From Candidatus Altimarinota bacterium (GTDB lineage Bacteria > Patescibacteriota > Gracilibacteria > BD1-5 > UBA2023), in the NCBI GenBank assembly GCA_041909865.1, contig JAYRRZ010000060.1, forward strand, positions 2,928 through 66,927: DNA of 64,000 bases, in the 5' to 3' direction. The notes beneath the pieces are model-generated. The model was given only the letters and a program-made list of their open reading frames with translations, was not told the DNA's origin and did not search any database. Within the stretch, counting starts at the first letter, position 1. Each line of letters starts with the position of its first letter. This document shows, one piece after another, positions 17,689 through 41,223 of this stretch. A program made the translations under genes and the position numbers.

Positions 17689-17692
17689 TAGC

Positions 17693-17920: not shown

Positions 17921-17951
17921 TTTTATTATTCTCCGTAATTATTTTTATAAT

Positions 17952-18308: not shown

Positions 18309-18331
18309 ATCATTTTCCTCTGTAAATTAAT

Positions 18332-18908: not shown

Positions 18909-19056
18909 ATCATTCCTCCAACAGCAATCACCTATGCCGCTAAATCGCTTTCTAAGGGCCGTAGAAGCCCATTGTATGCCCGCCCCTACCCTTATGTACT
19001 ACTCAACACGCAGACAGGGCTTAAAACGCATTCTACGCGGTTTTAGCTATTCTCAG

Positions 19057-19398: not shown

Positions 19399-19796
19399 GG
19401 AAGTTCTCCTGTCTCAATCCCTACCAACCACAAAGTTTCTTCCAGCGGGGAATAATCACTATACCAAGCGTCTTCATCCTTGAACTCGTAACGGAAGCCT
19501 TTTCTACTCTCATCCATTGTGTTCACCACAACAAGTTTTGAATAATATTCTGAATTTGCATGACCATCTACAATTCCAACAGAGATTGGTAAGCCAAGAT
19601 GATGTACTACATACTCAATCATATCCACAACAGCCGTGTGGTAGTAGTGCTCCTCGTCTCCGAGATAGAAAGAACCAGACAACGTATTTTGATCTTCCGT
19701 ATTCTCATAATGAAACACAAAGAAATTGTCTTCCACTTTGTACTTGAACACAGCTTTCTTCACTGGAACATTAAAATTCATCTTCATTTCTTCCAA
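19380..19796 (-). CDS. hypothetical protein
   Basis: 138 aa, same-strand array. Confidence 0.5.
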   Translation of the reverse strand: MEEMKMNFNVPVKKAVFKYKVEDNFFVFHYENTEDQNTLSGSFYLGDEEHYYHTAVVDMIEYVVHHLGLPISVGIVDGHANSEYYSKLVVVNTMDESRKGFRYEFKDEDAWYSDYSPLEETLWLVGIETGELPCTEFQ

Positions 19797-19966
19797 ATAA
19801 TAAATTGACCAATGTATCTATCTCCTTCGGAGACAATGTATTTCTTCTCCCACAACGTATCTTGTGATCCATACAAGCACACAATCTTGTGTTTTATATT
19901 GTCTTGACGAAGACCACTCTTATCCTCATCAAGAAAAAGAGAAGCAAATTGTTTGAATGTTAGCAT
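19784..19966 (-). CDS. hypothetical protein
   Basis: start taken at MLTFKQ (19966), 7-nt overlap with upstream stop. Confidence 0.45.
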   Translation of the reverse strand: MLTFKQFASLFLDEDKSGLRQDNIKHKIVCLYGSQDTLWEKKYIVSEGDRYIGQFIIWKK

Positions 19967-20226
19967 TCTTTCCTCTCCGCTTCCCATCTTTGCTTCGCAA
20001 ACAAGAAAATCAGCTTGTTGAAGAACAAGCATTCTTCATCACCAGAAATAGTTCCACACTCACAACATTCGTTGTAATACAATCCTTCTTCAACAGAATA
20101 CAATTCCTCTCCACAGGAGAGGTGTTCTTTCAAGTTGAGTGTGATGTTATCTACCTCATACACTCTAACTAAACTCTTGTGTCCGCACACAGGACACAAT
20201 GTATCCCTCTTTAATGGAAAGTTCAT
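19960..20226 (-). CDS. zinc-ribbon protein
   Basis: 88 aa, CPVCG ... CCECG; first gene after promoter 20257-20285. Confidence 0.5.
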   Translation of the reverse strand: MNFPLKRDTLCPVCGHKSLVRVYEVDNITLNLKEHLSCGEELYSVEEGLYYNECCECGTISGDEECLFFNKLIFLFAKQRWEAERKEC

Positions 20227-20256
20227 CTCTATTCCCTATACACAACACATATTCCT

Positions 20257-22463: not shown

Positions 22464-22663
22464 CCCTCTACGCCTCTTGTGGACATGCCATTAAAGACGG
22501 AGAACACGATATTGTGTGCTCCATGAAAGCCCTCTCTCGTGAAGGGGATAGGTGCATTCATATTGGCTCTTTGTGTGAAGATTGTTATTCCATCTCTCTT
22601 GAGCTTGGCGAAATCCTTCGGACGGAAGGAGAAGAGATGAGTTGGTTGAGAGGGAAAGAATAA
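22460..22663 (+). CDS. small Cys-rich protein
   Basis: start at MTLYASCGH; TAATG overlap with the dam start. Confidence 0.45.
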   Translation: MTLYASCGHAIKDGEHDIVCSMKALSREGDRCIHIGSLCEDCYSISLELGEILRTEGEEMSWLRGKE

Positions 22664-23364
22664 TGCGGTATTTTGGTGGAAAGCAACGAATCAGTAAACC
22701 ATTGGCAGCATTCCTGAACAGTCAATTGAAACCTGAGCAGGCGTTCTATGACATGTTCTGTGGAAGCTGTAATGTTATCAGCAAGATTGATCCTAACCGA
22801 GACAGGATTGCTAATGATTTGCACAAAGAATTGATTGCAATGTGGCGATATGTACAACAAGGTGGGGAGTTGCCAGATGAAATCAGTGAAGAACAATATC
22901 AAGAGATTAAAGAGAGCGGTGAAGATTGGTTAAAAGGTTTTGTTGGATTTGGTTGCAGCTTTGCTGGTAAGTATTGGGGAGGATATGCTCGTGGTGGGGA
23001 TGGGCGTGACTATTGCCAGAATGCTAAAAATAGTACATTAAAGAAAATGAAATCCTTGCAAGATGTAATATTTACTAATCTTAATTATGAGGATTTGCAC
23101 ATCTCTCATAAGAGAGCAATGGTGTATTGTGATATCCCGTATAAAGACTCTGTTGGGTATAGTGTTGGAAATTTTGACCATGAAAAGTTTTATAAATGGG
23201 CGTCTTGGTGGTGGGGTCAAGGAAAACATGTAATTGTTAGTGAGTACAAGCACAATGTCCCTGAAGGATGGAAAATTGTGTGGGAATACGAAAGTAAGAA
23301 AGATATTCGTGATAAGAGTGGTATTCAGCAGCCTACTGTTGAAATTCTTATGACACCGTGTTGA
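22663..23364 (+). CDS. dam: DNA adenine methyltransferase, Dam (D12 class)
   Basis: MRYFGGKQRISKPL N-terminus, FCGSCNV (motif I), CDIPY (DPPY-type catalytic motif). Confidence 0.8.
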   Translation: MRYFGGKQRISKPLAAFLNSQLKPEQAFYDMFCGSCNVISKIDPNRDRIANDLHKELIAMWRYVQQGGELPDEISEEQYQEIKESGEDWLKGFVGFGCSFAGKYWGGYARGGDGRDYCQNAKNSTLKKMKSLQDVIFTNLNYEDLHISHKRAMVYCDIPYKDSVGYSVGNFDHEKFYKWASWWWGQGKHVIVSEYKHNVPEGWKIVWEYESKKDIRDKSGIQQPTVEILMTPC

Positions 23365-31784: not shown

Positions 31785-32284
31785 ATGAACAAAGTATATG
31801 CTGGAGTTGGGAGCAGGGAGACACCCCTCATGTCTTGGAGAAGATGAGGAAGATAGGGAAATATCTTGCAGAGCAAGGATGGGTGTTGCGTAGTGGAGGG
31901 GCTATAGGAGCAGATAGCGCCTTTGAGCAAGGTTGTGACAGTGGAAGGGGGAAGAAAGAAATCTTCTATGCTAGTAATAACAAGGGAAAGATTGTTACAG
32001 ATAAAAATGTATGGGAAGAAGCAGCGAAGCTGGCAGAGGGGATACATCCCGCACGGGAGAAGTGTAATGAGTATGCTAGGAAACTACACAGCAGGAATTG
32101 TTTTCAAGTGATGGGAGGGGATTTATGTTCTCCAGTATCCCTCCTCATTTGTTGGACAAAGAATGGGAAAGCCAGTGGAGGGACAGCAACTGCAATTAAT
32201 CTTGCTTTAAGAAACAATATCCCTGTGTACAACTTATTCTTCGATAACACCCTTCAAGAACTTAGAAATATTTTATTAAAATAA
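31785..32284 (+). pseudogene. DprA/Smf-like SLOG (Rossmann) protein, interrupted by a -1 frameshift at a C4 run
   Basis: ATG 31785 with SD GGAGGG gives MNKVYAGVGSRETP then a stop after 20 codons; the -1 frame continues PHVLEKMRKIGKYLAEQGWVLRSGGAIGADSAFEQG to 32284; joined at CCCC (31824-31827) they give the full GSR...SGGA.G.D signature. Confidence 0.6.
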
Positions 32285-32294
32285 TTATTTTGTA

Positions 32295-32315
32295 TCCTCA
32301 AGGATGAGGGATTTT
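32295..32315 (+). terminator. rho-independent terminator closing the rightward early operon
   Basis: TCCTCA-AGGA-TGAGG(G) followed by ATTTT. Confidence 0.5.
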
Positions 32316-32349
32316 CCGCCGAAAGCAGGGCTTTCATTTCAAATATCTC

Positions 32350-33087
32350 TTTCAACGCAAGTTGAAATATCTGTACTCATTGAAACGTCAACGTTTCATG
32401 TCATCTCTTTTGTGCGAAGCACAGCATGTATGTTCTTGTGTGGGCGTTATTAGGGATGGGTGATACCTTTTAAGGGGTGTGCAAAATGAGCCGTTGGCTC
32501 AAGTGGTGATAAGCACGAAGGGATGGCGGCATCTCTCACTCTTCTGTGATCCTAAAATATCCTGACTACCTACCCTCTCCAATGCCCCTCATTCACGCGC
32601 CAGCGCGTCATTTACCCTGTCCATTGGCTGTGCCAATACATTCCCCCATCCTAGACGTGGTTACGTCTAAAACGGCCTTTTCTGAGCGTTTCCTCGCTTG
32701 GCGTAGTGCTCAATGGCATCATATGCCAGCGAAGGGAATACTTTGACGTTTCACGTCAGAATTGTGACATTCCATTGCAAAGCAATGGGGTTGGCATACT
32801 CTTTGCCATGCTGGCATGAGGGGAGGAATTGATAGCGAAGCTGTCGGGGAGAGTGTTCCACGTGAAACAATGAGGCCTTTCGGCTGGCTTGAATGATATA
32901 TAGGGTGCGATGCTTAACACTACCCACAAACCGGGGTACCCCTCCCTGTTAATCCACTCTGTCCTACGGACATCAATTACCTATCTCAGCCCATTAGCCT
33001 GCACACTATTTCTAATGCTATCGTTGACGATAGCGGCATTCCCTTTCAGTCCTACGGACTAACATTCTCCCCTACATGCTACGCATG
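32350..33087. other. array of about 18 unrelated short perfect hairpins / palindromes in ORF-free DNA
   Basis: 4-7 bp stems with 3-4 nt loops at 32350, 32381, 32411, 32487, 32595, 32623, 32652, 32714, 32744, 32772, 32804, 32831, 32874, 32961, 33017, 33048, 33075 (details in findings). Confidence 0.8.
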
Positions 33088-33135
33088 AAGTGATTACATG
33101 CCAAACATTTACACCACACAATGACACACTCAACA

Positions 33136-33227
33136 CTGTAACATCCATTACAATAATGTAACACCCACTACATAACACCCATTACAGAATGAGACAATGG
33201 GTAATGTAACATTCTATAATGTAACAC
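33136..33227 (+). repeat. iteron cluster (A)ATGTAACA(C/T) x4 with interleaved CCATTACA repeats
   Basis: CTGTAACAT 33136, AATGTAACAC 33155, AATGTAACAT 33203, AATGTAACAC 33218; CCATTACA at 33145, 33179, 33264. Confidence 0.7.
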
Positions 33228-33289
33228 TATTTTCTTGTATCCCTAGCATTGACCGTTTTTTAACCATTACAAAACATCGAAAGAAACTG

Positions 33290-33318
33290 TTGACATAGGG
33301 AAAGGGATATTCCATACT
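33290..33318 (+). promoter_or_regulatory. possible promoter antisense to the end of the leftward island
   Basis: TTGACA 33290-33295, 17 nt, CATACT 33313-33318; no ORF downstream, faces terminator 33381-33409. Confidence 0.35.
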
Positions 33319-33380
33319 AGCTTTAAGACGGAAATCCGGGGAGACAATCACTACCCATGCGTGATTGTTATGGAATACAA

Positions 33381-33409
33381 GAAAAGAAAAAGCCGGATGT
33401 TAGTCCGGC
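33381..33409 (-). terminator. rho-independent terminator closing the leftward island
   Basis: minus strand GCCGGA-CTAACA-TCCGGC followed by TTTTTCTTTTC. Confidence 0.7.
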
Positions 33410-33433
33410 CTTCTCTCTCTCTTTCCCCCTCCC

Positions 33434-33628
33434 TTATTCCCAAATTCCTACCTGAATCTTAGCAGCGTAAATCGCCGCCTTGAGGGTCAGGTAGAACCCT
33501 TCGACGGTTCCATAACCATAACTGCCGTAAAAGCCATCCATCTTGATCACTTCGTAGCCTTCGCCAGATGTGACAACAATGACCAAGCTGCTATTGTTTT
33601 CAATCGTGAAGATCACATCCATTTTCAT
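33434..33628 (-). CDS. hypothetical protein (64 aa)
   Basis: SD GGGGGG/AATG region, terminator downstream. Confidence 0.5.
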   Translation of the reverse strand: MKMDVIFTIENNSSLVIVVTSGEGYEVIKMDGFYGSYGYGTVEGFYLTLKAAIYAAKIQVGIWE

Positions 33629-33839
33629 TTCCCCCCTATCGGCTCATGCCGTGTTGTTGATAGCTCTAATCCTAGGCGATAGCTAAAAGCATGTCAAACA
33701 CTCTTCTCAATTTTCTTGCATGGCGTTTAAACGCTCAGAAAGGCCCATTCCTGCCTTGCATCGCTACGGATGGGCCAATGTACTAGCACAAATGACAAAG
33801 CCACTAAAAAGGGGCTTGTAAGCGTTTCTAGACGTGTTT

Positions 33840-34001
33840 CTAATGCCATTCTTCCATGTAATGCTCTCGCATTTGCTGGAAGTCTTTCTCAATCTCCATT
33901 AACTCCCTTTCTAATGATTCCATGTCGGCTTGAATAACATCCTCGCCCAGAATTCTAGGTGTATCACTGGGACAATGACGGATGAATTTATCAGGCATCA
34001 T
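33840..34001 (-). CDS. hypothetical protein (53 aa)
   Basis: not in ORF track; ATGATG at 34001 overlaps the upstream stop; coiled-coil-like. Confidence 0.4.
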   Translation of the reverse strand: MMPDKFIRHCPSDTPRILGEDVIQADMESLERELMEIEKDFQQMREHYMEEWH

Positions 34002-34230
34002 ATTGTCTAACCTCCCAAGTTCCTTTTCCGTAAATCATTCCCATTATTTCCTCCCTCCCTGAGCACTCTTTTAATCTATCCGCTTTCCATTCGTGAAACA
34101 TGGAAATTGCAGTATTGTCATCCTTTGCCCAAAATGTTTTCTGCTTTCTCCCGCTGGGGGAGATGATTGCATAGGGGAGCATCATTTCCCCGATGATTTC
34201 CCCGTTAACATCGTCAAAATGTCTTAACAT
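33991..34230 (-). CDS. hypothetical protein
   Basis: start at MLRHFDD (ATGTTAA overlap with upstream stop). Confidence 0.45.
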   Translation of the reverse strand: MLRHFDDVNGEIIGEMMLPYAIISPSGRKQKTFWAKDDNTAISMFHEWKADRLKECSGREEIMGMIYGKGTWEVRQYDA

Positions 34231-34514
34231 AACACTCTCCCCATAATCACTTTGTCGCAATCGACAATCTTTATCAGGATAGCACAAAAGGCATTCATTC
34301 CATAGTATCCGCCCCACCCCGCTTTTTTCTCTTCACTGTCATCCGACAATCGCAAAAAGTCTCCAATATGAAAAACAATCCCCTGATAGCGAATGAAGTT
34401 TTCGCTATCAATATCATCCAGATAATCAAAATCCGCTTTCTCTTTTTCGGACAATTCATATCCGAAAACCATGTTGCGAGGAACGTGATTAGAGATAAAC
34501 TTCAAATCAGACAT
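34224..34514 (-). CDS. hypothetical protein
   Basis: start at MSDLKFIS; acidic middle part. Confidence 0.5.
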   Translation of the reverse strand: MSDLKFISNHVPRNMVFGYELSEKEKADFDYLDDIDSENFIRYQGIVFHIGDFLRLSDDSEEKKAGWGGYYGMNAFCAILIKIVDCDKVIMGRVLC

Positions 34515-34731
34515 TTTGTGTCTCCTGATTATCAAACGACAAAACCAAACAAAACCCAAACAGAATCCCCGGAAGCAATAACCACGAATTACCGCTTACA
34601 AGGGCATAACCAAGCCCGAGACACGTAGCAATCGCTAAGATTGCATTCCCTGCCTTACTCTCTAATGCCTTGAAAAGAGCATTAAAGATAATGGTACTGG
34701 CGGCCATGATATATAAAACGGATGATAGCAT
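34507..34731 (-). CDS. small membrane protein (2 TM)
   Basis: start at MLSSVLYIMAAS with SD GGAGAG. Confidence 0.5.
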   Translation of the reverse strand: MLSSVLYIMAASTIIFNALFKALESKAGNAILAIATCLGLGYALVSGNSWLLLPGILFGFCLVLSFDNQETQNV

Positions 34732-34732
34732 T

Positions 34733-34915
34733 TTACTCTCCCTTTCCCCTGTATTGCAGCGCCAGAAAATCATCCTTATCCTGCCCAAACAATGGCATAT
34801 TATAACTCCAATGATTCGGGTCTGATTCAGGAATGGCGGATTTGTTGCGCGTTTCCTTTCGGGAATTTAATTCCCGCATTACTGAATCACGCATTTTCTT
34901 TGGAAGCTCATACAT
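34733..34915 (-). CDS. hypothetical protein (60 aa)
   Basis: same-strand array. Confidence 0.45.
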   Translation of the reverse strand: MYELPKKMRDSVMRELNSRKETRNKSAIPESDPNHWSYNMPLFGQDKDDFLALQYRGKGE

Positions 34916-34917
34916 GA

Positions 34918-35196
34918 TTATTCCCCATCTTCAAAATTGACGGCTTTATAACACGCCTTATGTTCAGCCTTCATATCCTGTGCCCACTCAATTTCATAGA
35001 ATGCCGTACAACCTGAGCGGGAAACATATTTAATTCCGTCATATCGGAATCCCCCCACGCCAATATGGCGTGAAAGGATATTCACCGCACCCCGCAGGGT
35101 AGTCGCCTTTACCTTTAGGCGCGTTACCCATGAATAATTCAACACCCCGCCATATAAATCAGTGTAATCGAAATAAAACACTTGCTTGGTTTTCAT
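34918..35196 (-). CDS. hypothetical protein
   Basis: start at MKTKQVFYF, 2 nt after the upstream stop. Confidence 0.5.
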   Translation of the reverse strand: MKTKQVFYFDYTDLYGGVLNYSWVTRLKVKATTLRGAVNILSRHIGVGGFRYDGIKYVSRSGCTAFYEIEWAQDMKAEHKACYKAVNFEDGE

Positions 35197-35197
35197 G

Positions 35198-35431
35198 TCA
35201 TTCCTCTCTCGCATCCACCATAATAATGTTATAGCCAGCATCGGCTGGCAAGGATTGATGCATATCTAAACGATATTCCTTTGCCCCCATTCGCCGGGCG
35301 GTTTCCTTTGCGCTTGCAAGCATTCGCTTGAAATCAGGCTGATATTCTGTCTCAGTGTCCACCATTCCAGCAACATTGACACTATACCCATATTGATTCC
35401 CTACCTTGAAAAACTGAATAATCGCCTTCAT
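35198..35431 (-). CDS. hypothetical protein (77 aa)
   Basis: same-strand array. Confidence 0.5.
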   Translation of the reverse strand: MKAIIQFFKVGNQYGYSVNVAGMVDTETEYQPDFKRMLASAKETARRMGAKEYRLDMHQSLPADAGYNIIMVDAREE

Positions 35432-35443
35432 GTCATTATCCCC

Positions 35444-35722
35444 TCAAAGTACATAACATTTTTGAACGGGCGCAATAATCCCGCACAATTTGGTCTGTGT
35501 TGCGGGAGAGATATTAGCTCCCATCTTCCGCAACTCATACGCCACACACTGGGCATATTGCAAGCTATCGCTTTTCCCCGTTTGGGCATAGTGGCGCAAG
35601 GCGCGGCCCATAGCCAATGTAAGACGTTGCCGCTTTTCGGCTTTTGTCTCCCAGTCAAACCCGGACGGCTGGAGAGCCAGAACCAAACAAGCAAAAGCCA
35701 CAACAAAACAGAAAATAATCAT
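35444..35722 (-). CDS. secreted or membrane-anchored small protein
   Basis: N-terminal hydrophobic MIIFCFVVAFACLVLAL. Confidence 0.5.
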   Translation of the reverse strand: MIIFCFVVAFACLVLALQPSGFDWETKAEKRQRLTLAMGRALRHYAQTGKSDSLQYAQCVAYELRKMGANISPATQTKLCGIIAPVQKCYVL

Positions 35723-35734
35723 TTTCTTTTCCCC

Positions 35735-35953
35735 TTAACGGTTATCAACTGTAGCGGAAACATCCCCGCTAGTAATATGGCAAGTAGCCAGCCAATTTTG
35801 GCCGTCTTCATCCGCCTCGATAAACGGGACATAAACATATTGCCCCTGTACAAAAGCCGCGCCCATATCAATCTCGCAAGAAATCCCCTTTTCCGTGAAA
35901 CGCTTCGCTGCGCGGGAGAGGGCCAATTCTTCATGGTTAAATTTAACAATCAT
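35735..35953 (-). CDS. hypothetical protein
   Basis: start at MIVKFNHEE. Confidence 0.5.
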   Translation of the reverse strand: MIVKFNHEELALSRAAKRFTEKGISCEIDMGAAFVQGQYVYVPFIEADEDGQNWLATCHITSGDVSATVDNR

Positions 35954-36072
35954 TTTCTTTCTCCCCTTGCGCCTATGGCGCGTTAACAATTCACTTTAGC
36001 GATTGTTCGCCAGAACAATTCTCTTTATTGCTAACCCTCCTTTTGTGGGAAGGCTAGCTAAAAGGGAATTGA

Positions 36073-36258
36073 TTAAACTGAGTATTCCGAAAGGGTTTTA
36101 AACCCCTCCAATAATTCCACAGTTGTCACATGCGCGTGCCCTTTTTCCTTTGTTATGAACTGACACCACGACTTATATATAGCAATTGCTTGTTCGAAAG
36201 ACCTACCACTATAGACAGTACCAACTGTCCCATTAGTAACCACAGAAAATTGACGCAT
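36073..36258 (-). CDS. hypothetical protein
   Basis: start at MRQFSVV with SD AAGGGGA; first gene after non-coding block 36330-36960. Confidence 0.45.
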   Translation of the reverse strand: MRQFSVVTNGTVGTVYSGRSFEQAIAIYKSWCQFITKEKGHAHVTTVELLEGFKTLSEYSV

Positions 36259-36889
36259 CTTCTTTCCCCTTGTCGGCTTGTGCCGTGTTTTGATGATTTG
36301 CATTGTAGGGGAGGGGGAAAGGGGAGTCAATAACCTATCTTGTCAATTTGGGCCAATGTAACTTTTTTCTCTCTCCCCTCCCTTGCTAGGGCGAAGCAGA
36401 CAAGGGCGCAAGCCTGGCAAGCGATTTTTCCTTCTATATGCTGGCTTTTGTCGGCTGGCTATCTGGCATAGCCTAAAGCTATCAAAATTTGCATATGCAG
36501 ATAGCATGCCAACAATTCAAAAACCCGCGATCTTTATTTTTATAGGCTAGGGTACTGCCTGACGCCAGAACGCCTAAAAAGGGCCGTAGAACGCGTTTAA
36601 ACGCATATTGTTAAATGATGACAGAATGATACTTGGCATGGATGCTGCATAACGTGAATGGATGACACTAACAATTGTACCATTGTGCAATGTCATATAG
36701 GAAACGGATAGCTAGGGATAAAATAATATAGCTGGAATGGATGCAATGAGGGAGTGAATAGCTAGCTTGCTATCAAATCAGGGACATTAGGGACGAAAGC
36801 TGGACCATTTAACATGCCGCGCCACTAGCTAGGTGTCTATCTATCATGTTCCGGCTAATTTGATTTTCCTTTGTTTTTAAAAAGTGCTT

Positions 36890-36950
36890 GTGTCAAAAAT
36901 TTTCTAGGATTTTGAGTGAGTGGAAAACACGAACGAAAAATCATCCCCCC
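36890..36950 (+). repeat. 61-bp direct repeat, copy 1
   Basis: GTGTCAAAAATTTTCTAGGATTTTGAGTGAGTGGAAAACACGAACGAAAAATCATCCCCCC; 60/61 identical to 39990-40050. Confidence 0.9.
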
Positions 36951-36967
36951 CCTAGTCTTAAAATTCC

Positions 36968-37180
36968 TTATTTCCCCTTTTCCTTTGAATCTCTTTCAAT
37001 CATATATTCAATATGTTCCTTTGCGCGATTTATCCCTTTTTCGCCAAGATAACCGATAATGCCAACACGTGTTGAGTGCGTTATCCCTATTTTGTAAACC
37101 TCAAACCCTTTTTCTTTCTTATCTAATACCCAATAATATCCTTTTTCAAAAACAATTTCACTTTCTTTATAGCTTGACAT
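36968..37180 (-). CDS. hypothetical protein (70 aa)
   Basis: same-strand array, SD GAGGAAGG. Confidence 0.5.
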   Translation of the reverse strand: MSSYKESEIVFEKGYYWVLDKKEKGFEVYKIGITHSTRVGIIGYLGEKGINRAKEHIEYMIERDSKEKGK

Positions 37181-37266
37181 TTCTCGCCTTCCTCAATAAT
37201 CAAGATTCAAAAAAAGGGCCGACAAAATATTTAGCATAGAAATATCGGCCCTAGAAATATGACTAC

Positions 37267-37782
37267 TCAAAAATCATGCGGATTTGTCACATAAACATCC
37301 AGTGCAATTTCAACAATATCCCCGTTATACACCATGTCCCGGCCGAGTGCGTCATAATCGAAATAACACGCAAGATTTCCCATCATCTTCTCAATGTTAT
37401 AACAATCTGACACGAATTCTTCCGCATACTCCCCCGGCGTCCCCTCAAAAATGCACACTTCATCAACCTTGTCGAACACTTCATCACAAAAAACATCTTG
37501 CCAAAGCGTAGCATCACACAAGAATTGAAAGGCGTATTGTTCACGGCTATCAAGCCCTGCGTACTTATCCGCCCACTCAATCCACTGTTCCAGATTGCAC
37601 TGACTGGGAGGCACAATTTTGGCAAAATCGCTAGCTTCCTCATCAATCGCTTGAATCTCATACTCTTCGACAGGCTGGCCAGAAGAGTTAAGGTTAGCCT
37701 CTGCTTTTTCTGCATACTCTTCAAAAGAGTCAAAATAGAAGCCTTGGGCGGAAACATCGTAAGGTTGGGCGAACAGTTGCAT
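37267..37782 (-). CDS. ardA: ArdA-like antirestriction protein
   Basis: 171 aa, very acidic; C-terminal AEEFVSDCYNIEKMMGNLACYFDYDALGRDMVYNGDIVEI parallels the ArdA ...YIDY.AYGRDL...G.F.. region (Tn916 Orf18 as I remember it). Confidence 0.6.
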   Translation of the reverse strand: MQLFAQPYDVSAQGFYFDSFEEYAEKAEANLNSSGQPVEEYEIQAIDEEASDFAKIVPPSQCNLEQWIEWADKYAGLDSREQYAFQFLCDATLWQDVFCDEVFDKVDEVCIFEGTPGEYAEEFVSDCYNIEKMMGNLACYFDYDALGRDMVYNGDIVEIALDVYVTNPHDF

Positions 37783-37859
37783 AATCTTGTCTCTCTTGAT
37801 GTTGAGGCACTACCATTAGCGCCTTGTATGATTGATGATATAGCCTATCGGCTAAGGTG

Positions 37860-38204
37860 TCAAGCCCTTACAAAATAAAAATCAGTAGACTTTTCATCTT
37901 GCCATTTTTCAGACTTCAAAAATTTCCATTTTCCCTTGATTCCTTGATTCTTTCTTGCCACTTGTAAAATTTCCTCATGCGAAGGTTCGCCAAGATTACA
38001 CAAATGGTCAACCCGGCAATATAGCCCTTCGCTGTCCGGCTGGAATGCCACTACCCTATCATGCTTTCCATAGTTAGTGATGACAGAATCTTGATCTAGT
38101 TTCAAAAGGTTTAAATGACCAAAACATCCATGCCATTTATCACCCCAAGCGTTAACATAGTGAAGTTTTTCATCTTTCCACTGTTCACCTGTACAGAGCT
38201 TCAT
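37860..38204 (-). CDS. hypothetical protein (114 aa)
   Basis: same-strand array. Confidence 0.5.
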   Translation of the reverse strand: MKLCTGEQWKDEKLHYVNAWGDKWHGCFGHLNLLKLDQDSVITNYGKHDRVVAFQPDSEGLYCRVDHLCNLGEPSHEEILQVARKNQGIKGKWKFLKSEKWQDEKSTDFYFVRA

Positions 38205-38280
38205 AATTCTGTCCTCTTGTGCGTTTCAATGTACCAATTATTGCATGATATAGTGGAACATGCAATAAGGGAGTGTAAAG

Positions 38281-38302
38281 AAATGTAACATCCTTGTTAC
38301 AT
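38281..38302. promoter_or_regulatory. inverted pair of the AATGTAACA motif (operator or hairpin)
   Basis: AATGTAACA-TCCT-TGTTACATT, 8-9 bp arms, intergenic. Confidence 0.6.
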
Positions 38303-38304
38303 TG

Positions 38305-38622
38305 TCATTTCAAAAAGCCACAATGCCGCAAGGCTTTTTCCCAATAACGCATAGTGCGGGCATTTCCTCGCTTGGGATGCAAAGAATAGCTAACCTCCTC
38401 GCAAGTAGAATAATCTTCAATTTGTGGATAGGTGGATAACCAAGAATCAGCACAAGCGGGATAATCGCTTGTTTGGCTATATCCCTTGCTTTCAATATAA
38501 TCCACTAACTCGCGTAAAGTGAATTCCCTATCTTCAAAAGTGAAGCCCCTTTCTTCAGCCTCCCCATTTTCAGCACTTTCCGGAGTGACAATTTTGTAAC
38601 ATTCAGAAATAATCAAAGGCAT
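38305..38622 (-). CDS. hypothetical acidic protein
   Basis: start at MPLIISE, 2 nt after the upstream small-ORF stop. Confidence 0.5.
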   Translation of the reverse strand: MPLIISECYKIVTPESAENGEAEERGFTFEDREFTLRELVDYIESKGYSQTSDYPACADSWLSTYPQIEDYSTCEEVSYSLHPKRGNARTMRYWEKALRHCGFLK

Positions 38623-38624
38623 TC

Positions 38625-38792
38625 TCAATTCCCCAATTGTGCAAGCCATTGCTTAAACGCTTGCGTGACGTTGTCAAGCCTTTCCAGCTTAGTCAACAAT
38701 ATTTTATCCGCTTCCTTCTCAGGATTAAAGCGGATAATAATCTGTTTCACTTTGCTGGCGTACTGCTTTTGTGAGGGGCCATATGTTGACAT
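38625..38792 (-). CDS. small hypothetical protein (55 aa), possibly RHH-like
   Basis: not in ORF track; TAAATG junction with the upstream gene; KVKQIIIRFNPEKEADKILLTKLE suggests a beta-strand + helix DNA-binding fold (weak). Confidence 0.4.
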   Translation of the reverse strand: MSTYGPSQKQYASKVKQIIIRFNPEKEADKILLTKLERLDNVTQAFKQWLAQLGN

Positions 38793-39098
38793 TTAATTTT
38801 CCTCCTCTTCCGTTTCATCACCATTTTTAGCAATTGGTGGGAGGCTTTTCCAGTATAACACATTATCATATCTGAGCGAATCTTCCCAAGGGGAATTTAT
38901 CTCTAAAAATACCCGTAAGTCATGGTCATTTCGACGACAAGCGAACTCCATAAGGGTACAAGCAATTCGGAAAACATCCCCCGTAACTGCTAGGCAGTAT
39001 TCCCCATACATTCCTCGCCCGGAATAATTCATAACATCAAATCCGCCCAAGGATTCCGAGCATTCGATGATAGATTCCGCAATGGCTTGACAGTTCAT
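38793..39098 (-). CDS. hypothetical acidic protein (101 aa)
   Basis: YSGRGMYGEYCLAV motif seen in other phage/plasmid small proteins (recollection); acidic tail. Confidence 0.5.
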   Translation of the reverse strand: MNCQAIAESIIECSESLGGFDVMNYSGRGMYGEYCLAVTGDVFRIACTLMEFACRRNDHDLRVFLEINSPWEDSLRYDNVLYWKSLPPIAKNGDETEEEEN

Positions 39099-39113
39099 TT
39101 TTCATTTCCTCGC

Positions 39114-39290
39114 TTACAGTTCAATAAAATCAGAATCAATATCTGGAGCATAACACACTTCAATCCGGTCATCCCTTGTTAGCAGATTGCGTGCCTTTTC
39201 CTTCACTTGTTCTTCATTCTCTCCCTTGATAAGCCAGCGGGAATAGTTATTAGCCCTCCAATGGTAAATCACCACATAAAAAATCTTCAT
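39114..39290 (-). CDS. small hypothetical protein (58 aa)
   Basis: not in ORF track; MKIFYVVIYHW..., fills the gap between flanking genes. Confidence 0.4.
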   Translation of the reverse strand: MKIFYVVIYHWRANNYSRWLIKGENEEQVKEKARNLLTRDDRIEVCYAPDIDSDFIEL

Positions 39291-39364
39291 CTTGACACCT
39301 CTTCACATTTCTATTACGTTGCCGCCTATCTTATGATAAGCGCCTTAGACACATGATAGCTATA

Positions 39365-39574
39365 TCACTTGAGAGTGTCAAGTGATTTCATCCACCACTC
39401 AAGAGCTAATTTCAATGCGAATGTATCCACATAGTGAACGGATTGTTGCAGGAAGTAACCACAAGTCCGCATCCACCACTTATAATTTGCAATCGCTTCA
39501 TTTTCAGGAAAAAGCAATTCCAGTAATTCATCATCGGTTGCAGGGGGAAAGACAAAATCTTTAAAGCTAGTCAT
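39365..39574 (-). CDS. hypothetical protein (69 aa)
   Basis: start at MTSFKDF with SD GAGGA; first gene after non-coding block 39700-40050. Confidence 0.45.
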   Translation of the reverse strand: MTSFKDFVFPPATDDELLELLFPENEAIANYKWWMRTCGYFLQQSVHYVDTFALKLALEWWMKSLDTLK

Positions 39575-39989
39575 CTTGTGTTCCTCGCTTGTGCGTTGTG
39601 TTGATAAGCGAATGATATAGCCCTTCCCTTGATATAGCAAGCGGAAAGCACAAGCTAGAATGTAACAGATTGTAAACGATAAAACAGGGTTAGGCATATA
39701 TAGAAGAAATTGCCCGCCTAGCGTCCAATACGCTTAAACGCTCAGAAATGCGATTTAAGCCTGTTTGATAGGGGAAAGGCTACAAGGGTAGGGGGAAGGA
39801 GGAGAAAAGGGCAGGAAAGGCCCATAGAAGCGATTTTAGAGCTATTCCGCTATGGCTGGCGGTAGCATTGTCTGGAGCAACACACATTAGGGATGATTTC
39901 TCAAAGAATTTAACATTCCCCGCCACCCTCTTTCCTTGTCGCCGCCCCTTGCGGCTGATTTGAAATCCCCTCTTTTCAAAAAATCCCTC

Positions 39990-40050
39990 GTGTCAAAAAT
40001 TTCCTAGGATTTTGAGTGAGTGGAAAACACGAACGAAAAATCATCCCCCC
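39990..40050 (+). repeat. 61-bp direct repeat, copy 2
   Basis: 60/61 identical to 36890-36950, exactly 3100 bp to the right. Confidence 0.9.
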
Positions 40051-40381
40051 TATAAGAGAAATTCCCTCTTGTCCTCACGGACAAAACACAACATTCTTGC
40101 TGTTCCAGCAAAGCTACACACAAAACAACAAATGTAAAAGCATTACAAGAAACACAACACAAAGCGACAGCTTTAAAAGCAATACACAAAACCATTGATA
40201 CAACAAACAATGAAATGTGTATGTATTATTGACAAGCATTGCTTGTCAGCAGAACACAAGCATTCCTACGGAATGAATTGTACACATCTTTAATTCAGGG
40301 ATTTGAAAATCTTTCCTCAAAAATATCTGGTATTAAAATATCCCTAAAAATATCCCACATGAAATATTGAATGGGATATAT

Positions 40382-40426
40382 TGTACAGCATGTGCTGTAC
40401 ATGGGAGGATGTTGTGCGAAGCACAA
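40382..40426. promoter_or_regulatory. conserved control element: TGTACAGCA-N2-TGCTGTACA palindrome + TTGTGCGAAGCACAA hairpin
   Basis: second copy of the element at 20319-20365; preceded by the TGACAAGCA-T-TGCTTGTCA palindrome (40231-40249) and the CATTCC-TAC-GGAATG hairpin (40261-40275). Confidence 0.6.
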
Positions 40427-40641
40427 AATATACTCTTCTTTAAAAGAAGGGTCTTCGTGCGGCTTTCCGCACAAGTGGGGACAACGTATGCGGAGCATAC
40501 AATGTAACATGATTGAAATTTGTTGTGAATTTCAACTAAGGGTTGAATTTGTTAGATAGGATGTAATCAAGAAAGGTTGTGTTTGTTCTTCTTTATTTAT
40601 ATATTTTCTGTTCTATTATCTAATAACTAACCTTTAATGGT

Positions 40642-40702
40642 GTGCAACTATTGCACCATGCCTAAGTGCAACCATTGCACTATGAACGTGCAGGATTTGC
40701 AC
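40642..40702. promoter_or_regulatory. three tandem palindromic operators GTGCAA-N3-TTGCAC
   Basis: GTGCAACTATTGCAC 40642, GTGCAACCATTGCAC 40666, GTGCAGGATTTGCAC 40688; spacing 24 and 22 bp; just upstream of promoter 40740. Confidence 0.7.
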
Positions 40703-40739
40703 TATGCCCCGTTCTTTACTTTGTGTTACAAAGTACTTC

Positions 40740-40768
40740 TTGCTTTATTTCATATACAGCTTTATACT
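40740..40768 (+). promoter_or_regulatory. sigma70-type promoter of the rightward replication module
   Basis: TTGCTT, 17 nt, TATACT; preceded by palindrome TACTTTGT-GTT-ACAAAGTA (40715-40733). Confidence 0.55.
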
Positions 40769-40802
40769 GAATGTAGGAGGGGAATTATACGGAGATACAA
40801 CA

Positions 40803-41051
40803 ATGCTTGACAACCAGAAAAAGTTCAACTATCGTGATGCTTCTGAGCAAGAAGTATTGGACCATGTGCTGCAATCCACACACCAAGCCGTACAAGCGGC
40901 TAAGGCATACTACACTAGACAAGGGGAAAGAGATGTTGTAAAACGCATCAACGATGCTCGTGATAAGGCTAAGATGATTAGGCTTCAACTTAAAATAGAG
41001 GAATCCCGCAATGAAGTTGATGGTGGAAATACCAACATCTATGGTGAGTAA
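40803..41051 (+). CDS. hypothetical protein
   Basis: start at MLDNQKK downstream of the promoter, SD GGAG. Confidence 0.5.
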   Translation: MLDNQKKFNYRDASEQEVLDHVLQSTHQAVQAAKAYYTRQGERDVVKRINDARDKAKMIRLQLKIEESRNEVDGGNTNIYGE

Positions 41052-41223
41052 GATTGACGAAGTGAGAGGAGAGATGAGTAGGGCAGCATATTTATTTAAC
41101 AGCTTAAAAATTAAGCTGGACAAAGACAGAGAAACATTAAACGAATCCGCCACGCAAAGGGGAGAACAACATGAAGCAGAAAAAGGAAATAATTACAATT
41201 TCCAGTCAATTCGAGTTGACTAA
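41011..41223 (+). CDS. ribbon-helix-helix (Arc/CopG-like) DNA-binding protein
   Basis: MVEIPTSMVSKIDEVRGEMSRAAYLFNSLKIKL fits the beta-strand + two-helix RHH pattern with conserved SR; SD GAGGA. Confidence 0.5.
   Translation: MKLMVEIPTSMVSKIDEVRGEMSRAAYLFNSLKIKLDKDRETLNESATQRGEQHEAEKGNNYNFQSIRVD

What the first reader, a model, noticed from the sequence alone, without database searches (positions are those of the whole stretch)
33434..39697. Leftward island of about 20 tiny genes around ArdA: candidate anti-defence / host-takeover cassette array
This 6.3 kb block is transcribed against both flanking rightward modules. It holds about 20 ORFs of 46-171 aa with translational coupling and almost no recognisable domains. 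The exception is an ArdA-like DNA-mimic antirestriction protein (37267-37782). There are also several very acidic small proteins (38305, 38793), two small membrane proteins and a possible RHH.

The block divides into three sub-operons:
- 39574 to 36968
- 36258 to 33840
- 33628 to 33434

Each is preceded by 200-600 bp of non-coding DNA built from the same motif set: GGGCCAATGTA, GCGTTTAAACGC(TCAGAAA), AAGGGCCGTAGAA and the 61-bp repeat. In known phages and plasmid leading regions, such arrays next to ardA are enriched for inhibitors of host immunity. Most members here are unassignable and could be new inhibitors.
Basis: partly seen in the sequence, partly recalled or inferred. Interest (0 to 1): 0.65.

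Follow-up and report, generated by a model that had tools for sequence, protein, structure and literature searches.

The report
ArdA-anchored variable small-gene region of a phage
This is the fast-changing accessory gene block of a previously undescribed wastewater phage. It contains one genuine ArdA anti-restriction (DNA-mimic) gene and 18 real but unassignable tiny genes that differ from strain to strain, which makes it a reasonable but unproven place to look for new immunity inhibitors.

Summary
The core observation holds. Window 33434-39697 is a leftward array of 19 small genes (53-171 aa) between two rightward modules, and it ends in an intrinsic terminator.

**ArdA is real:**
- Pfam PF07275 scores 40.4 bits against a cut-off of 27.
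- A family profile hits PDB 2W82 at E 6.7e-8.
- The AlphaFold model (pLDDT 86) has 2W82 as its only significant Foldseek match.
- Net charge is -31.

**The other 18 genes** look like real genes: ATG starts, ribosome-binding sites, and dN/dS of 0.09-0.36. None matches anything in Pfam, PHROGs (function), NCBIfam, PADLOC or the PDB.

**Relatives:** related wastewater phages (contigs of about 82 kb) carry the same island in the same place. ArdA, with its own conserved promoter, is the only gene present in all of them. Neighbouring genes are deleted, inserted or replaced one at a time, even between strains about 93-96% identical.

**Motifs:** The real shared features are promoter-leader modules and a conserved three-box DNA element in two fixed positions.

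**Verdict:** an ArdA-anchored hyperplastic accessory region, probably early, resembling T4 hyperplastic regions with PeSL cassettes. The claim that most members are anti-defence genes remains guilt by association. It is a new member of a known kind, of moderate interest.

The parts
33434..39697 (-). Whole leftward island: 19 small genes in clusters, with internal non-coding regions
   Evidence: ORF layout and GC skew. The same island sits in the same genomic position in relatives L012, L016, L036-L040.
37267..37782 (-). g7, ArdA antirestriction protein (171 aa, net charge -31, pI 4.05)
   Evidence: Pfam PF07275 40.4 bits against cut-off 27. phrog_2059. Profile hit to PDB 2W82 at E 6.7e-8. AF2 pLDDT 86.2. 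Foldseek 2w82 at E 7.5e-4, prob 1.00, TM 0.47-0.49, with the next hit at E 0.5. Present in 7 of 7 related loci.
37835..37863 (-). ArdA's own promoter, TTGACA-17-TATCAT, with a 5-bp stem-loop (TAGCC/GGCTA) in the spacer
   Evidence: 11/12 match. The -35 and -10 boxes and the spacer stem are kept in L012, L016, L036 and L038. The outer stem pair changes T-A to C-G.
39365..39574 (-). g1 (69 aa), first gene of sub-operon 1
   Evidence: ATG plus ribosome-binding site. Same call on the Logan contig. 100% identical in strain L012.
39114..39290 (-). g2 (58 aa)
   Evidence: dN/dS 0.18.
38793..39098 (-). g3 (101 aa, net -11, acidic C-terminal tail); strain-variable cassette
   Evidence: phrog_14658, function unknown. 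Deleted exactly from the g2 stop to the g4 start in runs X2 and X4 and in L012. A homologue is present in L036.
38625..38792 (-). g4 (55 aa, pI 9.7); possible ribbon-helix-helix protein, untested
   Evidence: 78% identical in L012 with dS 0.52. No Pfam hit.
38305..38622 (-). g5 (105 aa, net -7); present only in some strains of the window's lineage
   Evidence: 52% identical to a hypothetical protein inside a small-gene array of Pseudomonas phage SS2019XI. Absent from L012.
37860..38204 (-). g6 (114 aa); occupies the slot directly upstream of ArdA
   Evidence: Homologues sit in the same slot in L036 and L037. An unrelated 144-145-aa gene replaces it in L012, L016, L038 and L040. Distant homologue in Vibrio phage 1.170.O.
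36968..37180 (-). g8 (70 aa), last gene of sub-operon 1
   Evidence: phrog_20712, function unknown. 98.5% identical in L012.
36073..36258 (-). g9 (61 aa); window-specific
   Evidence: Replaced in L012.
35735..35953 (-). g10 (72 aa); window-specific
   Evidence: Precisely deleted in run X11, skipping 35722 to 36016.
35444..35722 (-). g11 (92 aa); N-terminal hydrophobic segment, likely a membrane protein
   Evidence: Maximum Kyte-Doolittle hydropathy over a 19-residue window, 2.56. Found in 4 loci. dN/dS 0.09.
35198..35431 (-). g12 (77 aa); window-specific
   Evidence: Deleted in X4 and L012, skipping 35178 to 35439.
34918..35196 (-). g13 (92 aa); second most conserved island gene, family phrog_22729
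   Evidence: Found in 5 loci. 95 clusters (50% identity) in 1.84 billion proteins. 34 of 48 aligned members match phrog_22729. AF2 pLDDT 91.6. No PDB or BFVD fold match at E <= 0.001.
34733..34915 (-). g14 (60 aa)
   Evidence: 100% identical in L012.
34507..34731 (-). g15 (74 aa); hydrophobic, likely a membrane protein
   Evidence: Maximum Kyte-Doolittle hydropathy over a 19-residue window, 1.79. 95% identical in L012.
34224..34514 (-). g16 (96 aa), family phrog_1845
   Evidence: Homologues in Vibrio, Edwardsiella and Pseudomonas phages. The gene body is replaced by a different allele in L012.
33991..34230 (-). g17 (79 aa from ATG 34230; the ORF is open from 34317)
   Evidence: 97.5% identical over 80 aa in L012, which aa.
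33840..34001 (-). g18 (53 aa, net -8)
33434..33628 (-). g19 (64 aa), the single gene of sub-operon 3
   Evidence: 67% identical in L012, where a 176-aa T4 Y05D-like gene is inserted between the promoter and g19.
33382..33419 (-). Intrinsic terminator closing the island
   Evidence: 16-pair stem plus a T run. Local fold z -5.0.
39612..39640 (-). P1, promoter-like site upstream of g1 (TTGCTA-17-TATCAT)
   Evidence: Aligns with P2, P3 and the homologous sites of L016, L037 and L038.
39353..39381 (-). Promoter-like site upstream of g2 (TTGACA-17-TATCAT), with a stem overlapping the -35 box
   Evidence: 11/12 match.
36302..36330 (-). P2, promoter of sub-operon 2 (TTGACT-17-TACAAT), followed by the leader ATCAAAACACGGCACAAGCCGACAAGGGG
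   Evidence: The -35 and -10 positions are kept in L016, L035 and L038 while the spacers differ. The leader is repeated at 33629-33655 (family D14).
33669..33697 (-). P3, promoter of sub-operon 3 (TTGACA-17-TAGGAT), with the same leader
39949..40050 (-). Repeat A: a three-box A/T-tract element (GGAAATTTTTGACAC / GGGATTTTTTGAAAAG / GGGGATTTCAAATCAGCCG), about 300 nt upstream of P1
   Evidence: The homologous element lies in the same place in every relative, as a tandem 2 x 66 nt unit in L016, L035, L036, L040, L041 and L042. It has no stable fold, z +0.2.
36849..36950 (-). Repeat B: second copy of the element, directly after g8 and about 520 nt upstream of P2. Its first 61 nt match copy A with one mismatch.
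   Evidence: In strain L012 the same 5' part differs from copy A, which indicates A-to-B gene conversion in the window's lineage. It has no stable fold, z +0.96.
36593..36604 (.). Palindrome GCGTTTAAACGC, copy in non-coding region B
   Evidence: 2 exact copies against 0.05 expected.
33723..33734 (.). Palindrome GCGTTTAAACGC, copy upstream of P3
   Evidence: A degenerate third copy lies at 39722-39741 (family D7).

Best explanation
**What it is.** The block is the hyperplastic accessory gene region, probably early-expressed, of an undescribed phage lineage from wastewater and activated sludge. Related contigs are about 82 kb. The region is anchored by a genuine ArdA gene.

**How it is expressed.** Nineteen real small genes are read leftward from at least five sigma-70-type promoters and closed by one intrinsic terminator. 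Three of the promoters share a promoter-leader module. Two carry a stem-loop in or over the promoter, like T4 PeSL cassettes.

**What ArdA does.** From established knowledge of the family (Tn916 ORF18, PDB 2W82), ArdA is an acidic DNA mimic. It occupies the DNA-binding groove of type I restriction-modification enzymes, so unmodified phage DNA escapes cleavage. ArdA with its own promoter is the one element kept in every lineage.

**What the rest does.** The other 18 genes are dispensable accessory genes that are gained, lost or replaced one gene at a time. The breakpoints lie at gene boundaries and at the repeated promoter modules. Some probably act on the host, through counter-defence, shut-off, exclusion or regulation, but none can be assigned.

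**Shown here:**
- the genes are real;
- ArdA homology, fold and charge;
- conserved position of the island;
- gene-by-gene flux between strains;
- conserved promoter geometry.

**Inferred:**
- early timing;
- ArdA's target;
- recombination at the repeated modules;
- any function for the other genes.
For: **Phage context**
- The primase/helicase is 63% identical to those of Vequintavirinae-type phages. The window also carries DNA polymerase A, terminase, PhoH and ClpP.
- The source is activated sludge and wastewater runs.

**Gene reality**
- All 19 ORFs have ATG starts, ribosome-binding sites and tight spacing.
- An independent gene caller made identical calls for g1-g8.
- dN/dS against strain L012 is 0.09-0.36 for 9 genes.

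**ArdA**
- Evidence comes, with net charge -31.
- It is present in 7 of 7 related loci.
- Its promoter and spacer stem are conserved, with one compensatory pair.

**Hypervariability**
- Contigs from four other runs show gene-precise skips of g3, g10 and g12 and replacement of g5/g6.
- By my sum of the blastn segments, about 69% of the island aligns with strain L012. The breaks lie at gene boundaries and at PardA, P2 and P3.
- Clustering shows that g5, g9, g10 and g12 are unique to the window.
- dS varies from 0 to 0.66 between neighbouring genes, so the island is a mosaic.
- tblastn against GenBank phages finds only scattered single-gene homologues in unrelated phages. The g5 homologue inspected lies in a small-gene array.

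**Promoters**
- The five best minus-strand matches all sit directly upstream of genes or in non-coding DNA.
- P2 and PardA keep their -35 and -10 positions in lineages whose ArdA is only 52-60% identical.

**Closest precedent**
- T4-type hyperplastic regions with PeSL promoter/stem-loop cassettes (PMC2839356).
Against: - There are no expression data. No RNA run could be listed for the region, so 'early' rests on promoter sequence alone.
- Promoter-pattern matches are not enriched overall: 25 found against 21.4 expected.
- Only about 3 of roughly 14 strain breakpoints coincide with promoter modules. The rest are at plain gene boundaries. PeSL-type recombination can therefore be only part of the story.
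- The host is unknown, so the presence of type I R-M systems in it is assumed.
- ArdA is only 18-19% identical to the solved structure, and TM is 0.47-0.49. Dimerisation and activity were not tested.
- The anti-defence HMM sets (AntiDefenseFinder, dbAPIS) were not available, so known inhibitors could have been missed.
Confidence: 0.62

Rival explanations
1. The block is a dedicated anti-defence island, and most of the unassigned genes are inhibitors of host immune systems expressed immediately after infection.
For: - ArdA is genuine and is the conserved anchor.
- Rapid gene-by-gene turnover between near-identical strains is what arms-race genes are expected to show.
- The proteins are small, and several are acidic.
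- Anti-defence genes are known to cluster in some phages and in plasmid leading regions (PMC11724313, PMC11541004).
- The ORFs have no known non-defence role.
Against: - No second known anti-defence family was detected with Pfam, PHROGs, NCBIfam or PDB sequence search.
- The g13 model matches no solved structure, and solved inhibitors are part of the PDB library searched.
- In phages only about 18% of known anti-defence systems lie within 1 kb of another, and about two thirds stand alone (PMC11724313).
- Hyperplastic early regions of T4-type phages are just as variable, and most of their genes are of unknown function (PMC2839356).
- Two members are probably membrane proteins and one a possible DNA-binding regulator. 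These types are more typical of exclusion or regulation.
Confidence: 0.22
2. The non-coding parts are the primary feature. The three-box elements A and B and the adjacent hairpin chain form replication origins or another DNA-level site next to the HTH_36/primase/polymerase module. On this view the small genes are incidental passengers.
For: - The A/T-tract boxes of about 20-22 bp resemble iterons. They occur as one or two 66-nt units and are conserved in position in all relatives, although the surrounding DNA is unalignable.
- The element has no RNA or single-strand fold, which suggests it acts as double-stranded DNA.
- It lies about 1.1 kb from an HTH_36 gene and a primase/helicase.
- A hairpin-rich stretch lies at 40060-40560, z -5.5.
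Against: - There are two copies per genome, and one sits in the middle of the island after g8.
- The cumulative GC-skew minimum is near 19-20 kb, not here.
- The small genes are under purifying selection and have their own promoters.
- This reading would not explain ArdA or the gene turnover.
Confidence: 0.1
3. Most of the tiny ORFs are not genes. The block is degenerate or non-coding DNA around a single real ArdA gene.
For: - Eighteen ORFs have no functional annotation, and four are unique to this window.
- The island contains long non-coding stretches.
Against: - Every ORF has an ATG, a ribosome-binding site and operon-like spacing.
- All ORFs lie on one strand, with matching GC skew.
- dN/dS is 0.09-0.36.
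- Homologues exist in unrelated phages for g3, g5, g6, g8, g13 and g16.
- The g13 model is confident.
- Indels between strains respect gene boundaries.
Confidence: 0.04

Closest known systems
ArdA antirestriction protein (Tn916 ORF18, PDB 2W82; Pfam PF07275; AntiDefenseFinder family ArdA/ArdU)
   Same: - Pfam hit above the family threshold.
- A profile-level hit to the 2W82 sequence.
- The full-length predicted fold matches 2W82 as the only significant PDB hit.
- Similar length (171 aa against 165 aa) and an extreme negative charge.
   Different: - Only 18-19% identical to 2W82, with a modest TM of 0.47-0.49.
- Encoded by a phage rather than a conjugative element.
- It forms a distinct metagenomic subfamily of 25 clusters, none carrying a functional name from its source.
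- It has its own conserved sigma-70-type promoter.
- Dimerisation and activity were not tested.
Hyperplastic regions with PeSL (promoter-early stem-loop) cassettes of T4-type phages (PMC2839356, PMC4122927)
   Same: - Arrays of small orphan genes in a variable region between conserved modules.
- Repeated strong sigma-70-like promoters directly upstream of these genes.
- Stem-loops between or over the -35 and -10 boxes (PardA and the g2 promoter).
- Insertions, deletions and replacements that distinguish about 95%-identical phages.
- Some breakpoints at the repeated modules.
- Signs of recombination between repeats (conversion of copy B by copy A).
   Different: - The phage is not T4-like.
- Only 5-6 modules were seen here, against about 50 per T4-type genome.
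- Most breakpoints are at plain gene boundaries.
- Terminator function of the stems, and mini-circles, were not tested.
- The three promoters P1-P3 share a leader sequence rather than a strong stem-loop.
Anti-defence islands of phages (T4, lambda) and of plasmid leading regions (PMC11724313, PMC11541004)
   Same: - A known anti-restriction gene embedded in a cluster of small, fast-evolving genes of unknown function.
- Repeated non-coding elements upstream of the operons.
   Different: - Only one known anti-defence gene is detectable, so the defining co-localisation is not shown.
- The upstream repeats do not fold, unlike what a single-strand promoter hairpin would require.
- The element is a phage, whose DNA I assume enters double-stranded.
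Ocr (gp0.3) of phage T7
   Same: By my own knowledge, not tested here: Ocr is a phage-encoded acidic DNA mimic against type I R-M, expressed from a host-RNA-polymerase promoter at the start of infection. This is the same strategy as inferred here.
   Different: The fold and family are unrelated. The protein here is an ArdA, not an Ocr.

Membership tests
ArdA (PF07275) | Sequence match to the family model above the curated threshold | tested here: met
   40.4 bits against a gathering cut-off of 27, covering model positions 29-149 of 155. phrog_2059 'anti-restriction protein' at E 7.9e-8. A profile of 25 homologues hits 2W82 at E 6.7e-8.
ArdA (PF07275) | Elongated three-domain ArdA fold, as in PDB 2W82 | tested here: met
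   AF2 pLDDT 86.2, pTM 0.70. Foldseek finds 2w82_B and 2w82_A at E 7.5e-4, prob 1.00, TM 0.47-0.49 over 177-178 columns. The next hit is at E 0.5.
ArdA (PF07275) | Strongly negative surface charge (DNA mimicry) | tested here: met
   Net charge -31 in 171 aa, pI 4.05. The spatial pattern of charges was not analysed.
ArdA (PF07275) | Head-to-head dimer that mimics about 42 bp of bent DNA | not tested
   No multimer prediction was available.
ArdA (PF07275) | Inhibits type I restriction-modification enzymes | not testable with these tools
   This needs an in vivo restriction-alleviation assay or in vitro binding.
Anti-defence island (co-localised anti-defence genes, PMC11724313) | Two or more known anti-defence genes within 1-10 kb | tested here: not met
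   Only ArdA was detected with Pfam, PHROGs, NCBIfam and PDB sequence search. The dedicated AntiDefenseFinder and dbAPIS models were not available, so this negative is not final.
Anti-defence island (co-localised anti-defence genes, PMC11724313) | Located in a variable accessory region of a mobile element | tested here: met
   Gene-precise flux between strains and lineages.
PeSL-type regulatory cassettes (PMC2839356) | Repeated sigma-70 consensus-like promoters immediately upstream of orphan genes | tested here: met
   TTGACA-17-TATCAT upstream of g2 and ArdA, plus P1, P2 and P3. Positions are conserved in distant relatives. This is sequence evidence only.
PeSL-type regulatory cassettes (PMC2839356) | Stem-loop within or overlapping the promoter | tested here: inconclusive
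   A 5-bp stem lies in the spacer of PardA and is kept with one compensatory change. A 6-bp stem overlaps the -35 box of the g2 promoter. P1-P3 have only a 4-bp stem in the leader. Terminator activity is untested.
PeSL-type regulatory cassettes (PMC2839356) | Breakpoints of strain differences lie at the cassettes | tested here: inconclusive
   Breakpoints at 37865 (PardA), 36262 (P2 leader) and 33628-33634 (P3 leader) fit. About 11 others lie at plain gene boundaries.
Plasmid leading-region single-strand promoters (Frpo/ssi type, PMC11541004) | Non-coding element that folds into a long hairpin as a single strand | tested here: not met
   Repeats A and B fold no better than shuffled sequence as RNA, z +0.20 and +0.96. 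DNA energy parameters were not tried. That Frpo-type elements need such a hairpin is my own knowledge; I did not open PMC11541004.

The most novel reading that the evidence does not exclude
The island is a gene-exchange platform built on conserved non-coding scaffolds.

- **The scaffolds:** the scaffolds would be the 66-nt three-box units at two fixed positions, the paralogous promoter-leader modules, and promoters carrying stem-loops.
- **What they do:** through these scaffolds a whole clade of wastewater phages swaps single-gene cassettes.
- **What the pool holds:** the cassette pool would hold several new classes of immunity inhibitors. One candidate is the widespread g13/phrog_22729 family, whose confident predicted fold matches no solved structure.
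- **The three-box element:** it would be a new kind of protein-binding control or recombination site shared by all members.
Probability: 0.15. Interest if true: 0.65.

Novelty: new member of a known kind. Interest (0 to 1): 0.36.

Why it matters
**If the cautious reading is right,** this is a well-documented example outside the T4 group of a hyperplastic region organised around an anti-restriction gene. It also defines a new ArdA subfamily carried by phages.

**Practical value:**
- It gives a short, ranked candidate list for anti-defence screens. First come the genes that recur with ArdA across lineages (g13, g11, g6, g16). Next come the strain-specific cassettes (g3, g5, g9, g10, g12).
- The many wastewater runs that hold variants could give a population-level view of cassette turnover.

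**Limit:** it does not open a new question by itself. ArdA, anti-defence clustering and hyperplastic regions are all established.

Tried and rejected
**Searches that found nothing**
- Megablast of the island against GenBank phages and PLSDB plasmids found no match.
- Single-sequence search of ArdA in IMG/VR found none. Profile search found only distant ArdAs in unrelated contigs.
- Single-sequence ArdA against the PDB found nothing meaningful. The profile was needed.
- Rfam found nothing at gathering thresholds. At E <= 1 it gave only two sub-threshold chance hits. No tRNAs were found.
- Pfam, PHROGs (function), NCBIfam and PADLOC gave nothing for the 18 other ORFs. A concatenated phmmer search against the PDB gave nothing.
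- No RNA-seq run could be listed for the region.

**g13 family**
- No member matches any Pfam family, and the profile has no PDB match.
- Foldseek against the PDB and BFVD gave nothing at E <= 0.001.
- The family is absent from plasmids, and in GenBank phages it appears only in Burkholderia podophages.

**Ideas rejected**
- The 102-nt repeats are plasmid-like single-strand promoters or small RNAs. They have no fold.
- The TTGACA inside the repeat is a promoter. There is no -10 box, and the hexamer reads GGGACT in other lineages.
Its second copy lies at 18954, outside the island.

**Technical failures**
- The g19 dN/dS value is invalid, because the two alleles differ in length.

Full report
**1. 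Context**

The window is phage DNA. It encodes a primase/helicase 63% identical to those of Certrevirus/Vequintavirinae-type phages such as phiTE, CR3 and Hena1. It also encodes a family A DNA polymerase, PhoH, a ClpP-like protease, an HTH_36 protein and a terminase. The terminase is only about 35% identical to any GenBank phage.

The island has no near-identical DNA in GenBank phages or PLSDB plasmids. Sampled 31-mers of the island occur in activated-sludge and wastewater metagenomes. One run holds 99% of them, and about twenty others hold 15-38%. Contigs of relatives are 81.5-83.5 kb long. The phage therefore belongs to an undescribed lineage. Its host is unknown.

**2. The observation**

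Positions 33434-39697 are coding on the minus strand only. They lie between plus-strand modules that end at 32284 (a DprA-like/SLOG gene, phrog_768) and resume at about 40704-41171. GC skew is negative across the block and positive on both sides.

I count 19 genes of 53-171 aa:
- Every one starts with ATG 5-10 nt behind a GAGG/GGAG-type ribosome-binding site.
- Inside the clusters, spacing runs from an 11-nt overlap to a 15-nt gap.
- A Logan assembly's gene caller produced the same eight calls for g1-g8.
- Against the orthologues of a 93-96%-identical strain (L012), dN/dS is 0.09-0.36 for nine genes.
- A 16-pair intrinsic terminator follows the last gene.

These are therefore real genes. By hydropathy, g11 and g15 are likely membrane proteins. 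g3 (net -11) and g5 (net -7) are acidic but far from ArdA's -31. The suggested ribbon-helix-helix protein (g4, 55 aa, pI 9.7) is plausible from its sequence pattern but was not tested.

**3. ArdA**

- The 171-aa product of 37267-37782 scores 40.4 bits on Pfam PF07275 against a threshold of 27. It also matches phrog_2059, 'anti-restriction protein'.
- Alone it finds nothing meaningful in the PDB. A profile of 25 metagenomic homologues hits the Tn916 ORF18 ArdA, 2W82, at E 6.7e-8.
- The AlphaFold2 model has pLDDT 86.2 and pTM 0.70.
- Foldseek returns the two chains of 2W82 as the only significant matches: E 7.5e-4, probability 1.00, TM 0.47-0.49 over the full length. The next hit is at E 0.5.

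Dimerisation and activity remain untested.

**4. The other 18 genes**

Pfam, NCBIfam and PADLOC give nothing meaningful. PHROGs gives only families of unknown function: g3 matches phrog_14658, g8 matches phrog_20712 and g16 matches phrog_1845. A concatenated phmmer search against all PDB sequences finds nothing.

A concatenated tblastn against GenBank phages finds scattered single-gene homologues:
- g5 in Pseudomonas phages;
- g16 in Vibrio, Edwardsiella and Pseudomonas phages;
- g6 in a Vibrio phage;
- g8 in a Klebsiella phage.

The g5 homologue lies in a similar array of 14 tiny hypothetical genes.

I examined g13 more closely because it is the second most conserved island gene:
- It belongs to a widespread phage family, with 95 clusters (50% identity) in 1.84 billion proteins. 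Of 48 aligned members, 34 match phrog_22729.
- No member has a Pfam hit.
- Its model is confident, with pLDDT 91.6 and pTM 0.81.
- It has no PDB match (best E 1.3). In BFVD it has only weak matches to uncharacterised phage proteins (best E 0.087).
- The family is absent from plasmids.

Nothing links any of these genes to a known immunity inhibitor.

**5. Comparative evidence**

ArdA homologues led to contigs of a close strain (L012-L015, ArdA 96% identical). They also led to more distant lineages (L016-L019, L035, L036/L037, L038-L040, ArdA 52-60% identical). Where the contig reaches far enough (L012, L016), the island sits between the PhoH/ClpP module and the HTH_36/primase module and is read away from the latter.

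Clustering the island proteins across seven loci gives these counts:

| Gene | Loci (of 7) | Note |
|---|---|---|
| ArdA | 7 | the only universal gene |
| g13 | 5 | |
| g11 | 4 | |
| g6 | 3 | always directly upstream of ArdA |
| g16 | 3 | |
| g3 | 2 | |
| g5, g9, g10, g12 | 1 | window only |

Differences between the window and L012:
- g3 is missing exactly from the g2 stop to the g4 start.
- Most of g5 is absent, and g6 is replaced by an unrelated 144-aa gene.
- g9 and g10 are replaced by a 66-aa gene.
- g12 is deleted.
- The body of g16 is swapped for another allele.
- A 62-aa gene and a 176-aa T4 Y05D-like gene are inserted.

Contigs from four further runs show the same kind of gene-precise skips. 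All of them keep 36327-37865, which holds ArdA, g8 and non-coding region B. Synonymous divergence between adjacent genes ranges from 0 (g1, g14) to 0.5-0.66 (g4, g11), so the island is a recombinational mosaic. By my sum of the aligned segments, about 69% of the island aligns with L012.

**6. Regulatory anatomy**

The five best sigma-70-type matches on the coding strand all lie directly upstream of genes or in non-coding DNA:

| Site | Coordinates | Hexamers |
|---|---|---|
| upstream of g2 | 39381-39353 | TTGACA-17-TATCAT |
| upstream of ArdA | 37863-37835 | TTGACA-17-TATCAT |
| P2 | 36330-36302 | TTGACT-17-TACAAT |
| P3 | 33697-33669 | TTGACA-17-TAGGAT |
| leftward site inside the divergent region | 40813-40784 | TTGTCA-18-TATAAT |

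- P1 (39640-39612) is a weaker match.
- P1, P2 and P3 align with each other and with the homologous sites of L016, L037 and L038. They continue into a shared leader, ATCAA-ACACGGCA-YR-AGCCGA-YA-AGGGG, that runs up to the start codon.
- P2 and PardA keep their hexamer positions in lineages whose surrounding DNA is unalignable.
- PardA has a 5-bp stem in its spacer, which is preserved through a T-A to C-G change. A 6-bp stem overlaps the -35 box of the g2 promoter.

This matches the description of PeSL cassettes in T4-type hyperplastic regions (PMC2839356). However, pattern matches are not enriched overall (25 against 21.4 expected), and no transcript data exist. Early expression is therefore an inference.

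**7.

- GGGCCAATGTA (two copies) is the complement of a GTTACATTGGCCC box 25-70 nt upstream of P2 and P3. Relatives have TGTTACAAT at that place.
- GTTACAWT occurs 14 times in the window against 5.4 expected, and 8 of these occurrences lie within 33155-40508.
- GCGTTTAAACGC occurs twice against 0.05 expected, plus a degenerate third copy.
- AAGGGCCGTAGAA has its second copy outside the island, at 18954.
- The '61-bp repeat' is the identical 5' part of a 102-nt direct repeat at 39949-40050 and 36849-36950.

The 102-nt repeat is the most interesting non-coding feature:
- It consists of three A/T-tract boxes about 18-22 nt apart.
- About 70 nt further on comes a conserved YCCTAATG.
- It is found at the same two positions, upstream of operon 1 and just after the ArdA operon, in every relative.
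- In six other loci (L016, L035, L036, L040, L041, L042) the upstream copy is a tandem pair of 66-nt units.
- It occurs nowhere else in the 64-kb window.
- It folds no better than shuffled sequence, z +0.2 and +0.96. It therefore probably acts as double-stranded DNA, and it does not resemble a plasmid single-strand promoter.
- In L012 the 5' part of copy B differs from copy A, whereas in the window the two are identical. This points to recent conversion between the copies.

Its function is unknown. It could be a protein-binding array or an origin-like site.

**8. Interpretation**

The best-supported reading is a hyperplastic accessory region, probably early, anchored by a functional-looking ArdA gene with its own promoter. 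Around it, dispensable single-gene cassettes turn over quickly.

By family knowledge, ArdA mimics DNA and blocks type I restriction-modification enzymes. An incoming phage would need it immediately, which fits host-polymerase promoters.

Whether the neighbours are immunity inhibitors is open. Clustering of anti-defence genes is real but far from universal: about 18% of known systems in phages lie within 1 kb of another, and about two thirds stand alone (PMC11724313). Equally variable T4 regions consist mostly of genes without known homologues (PMC2839356).

Noticed in passing
window 39949-40050 and 36849-36950; L016 7300-7425 and 11400-11490; also L035, L036, L037, L038-L042: A conserved three-box A/T-tract DNA element lies at two fixed positions of the island in every related phage. 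The unit is about 66 nt and is tandemly doubled in several lineages. About 70 nt downstream comes YCCTAATG. It has no predicted fold, is absent elsewhere in the window, and its function is unknown.
   Followed up: partly
window 40060-40560 (minus strand): This stretch is a chain of about 12 short perfect hairpins with UUCG, GAAA and GUAG-type loops, z -5.5. Compared with strain L012, loops change while stems are kept. There is one compensatory C-G to T-A change, and one whole hairpin is deleted. L016 is also hairpin-rich at the same place.
   Followed up: partly
window 40642-40706: Three tandem palindromes GTGCAAC-N-ATTGCAC, spaced 24 and 22 nt apart, lie at the divergent junction between the island and the replication module. 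L016 has different repeated palindromes at the same place. This suggests lineage-specific operators for a small regulator encoded next door.
   Followed up: no
window 32285-33433: This is 1.15 kb of non-coding DNA between the convergent DprA-like gene and the island terminator. It holds three GTTACATT repeats at 33155-33225, a UUCG-loop hairpin at 32410-32430 and a strongly structured stretch at 32600-32840 (z -3.5 to -4.5). It is partly replaced in other strains.
   Followed up: partly
window 13000-16000: This segment has 54-58% GC against about 41% elsewhere. Its ORFs at 12973-13452, 13554-14810 and 14791-16017 (minus strand) have no PHROG hit, and the two larger ones no Pfam hit (the 159-aa ORF was not scanned against Pfam). 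It may be a foreign insertion.
   Followed up: partly
window 7673-12758: The terminase ORF 10995-12758 carries the Terminase_6N domain only in residues 359-587. Its N-terminal 385 residues resemble ORFs annotated as PhoH-like in Acinetobacter phages. The next ORF, 10037-10867, is an HNH endonuclease, and an 80-nt direct repeat (89% identical) lies at 7673-7752 and 9949-10028. The terminase locus may be interrupted by a homing endonuclease.
   Followed up: no
window 31835-32284; L012 16473-17351: The DprA-like/SLOG gene (phrog_768) flanking the island is replaced in strain L012, and in run X4, by a 292-aa gene with a weak PAPS-reductase-like Pfam hit. Gene replacement therefore extends beyond the island.
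   Followed up: no
window 22642-23364: This ORF matches a D12-class N6-adenine DNA methyltransferase, but only in its first 84 residues. It could be a second, methylation-based route around restriction.
   Followed up: no
window 16500-20250, especially 18935-19056: This is another leftward block of small ORFs. One of its intergenic gaps carries relatives of the island motifs (AAGGGCCGTAGAA, GGGCTTAAAACGCATTCTACGCGG). The motif family is therefore not specific to the ArdA island.
   Followed up: partly
L016 8809-9929, L038 3-1154, L040 1445-2569, L012 9522-9956: In the L016, L038 and L040 loci the slot upstream of ArdA holds a conserved pair: a 204-213-aa protein and a 144-145-aa protein with a weak DUF7222 hit. 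Strain L012 instead has a single, unrelated 144-aa gene there. The window has g5 and g6 in this slot. These ArdA neighbours may be worth testing together with ArdA.
   Followed up: no
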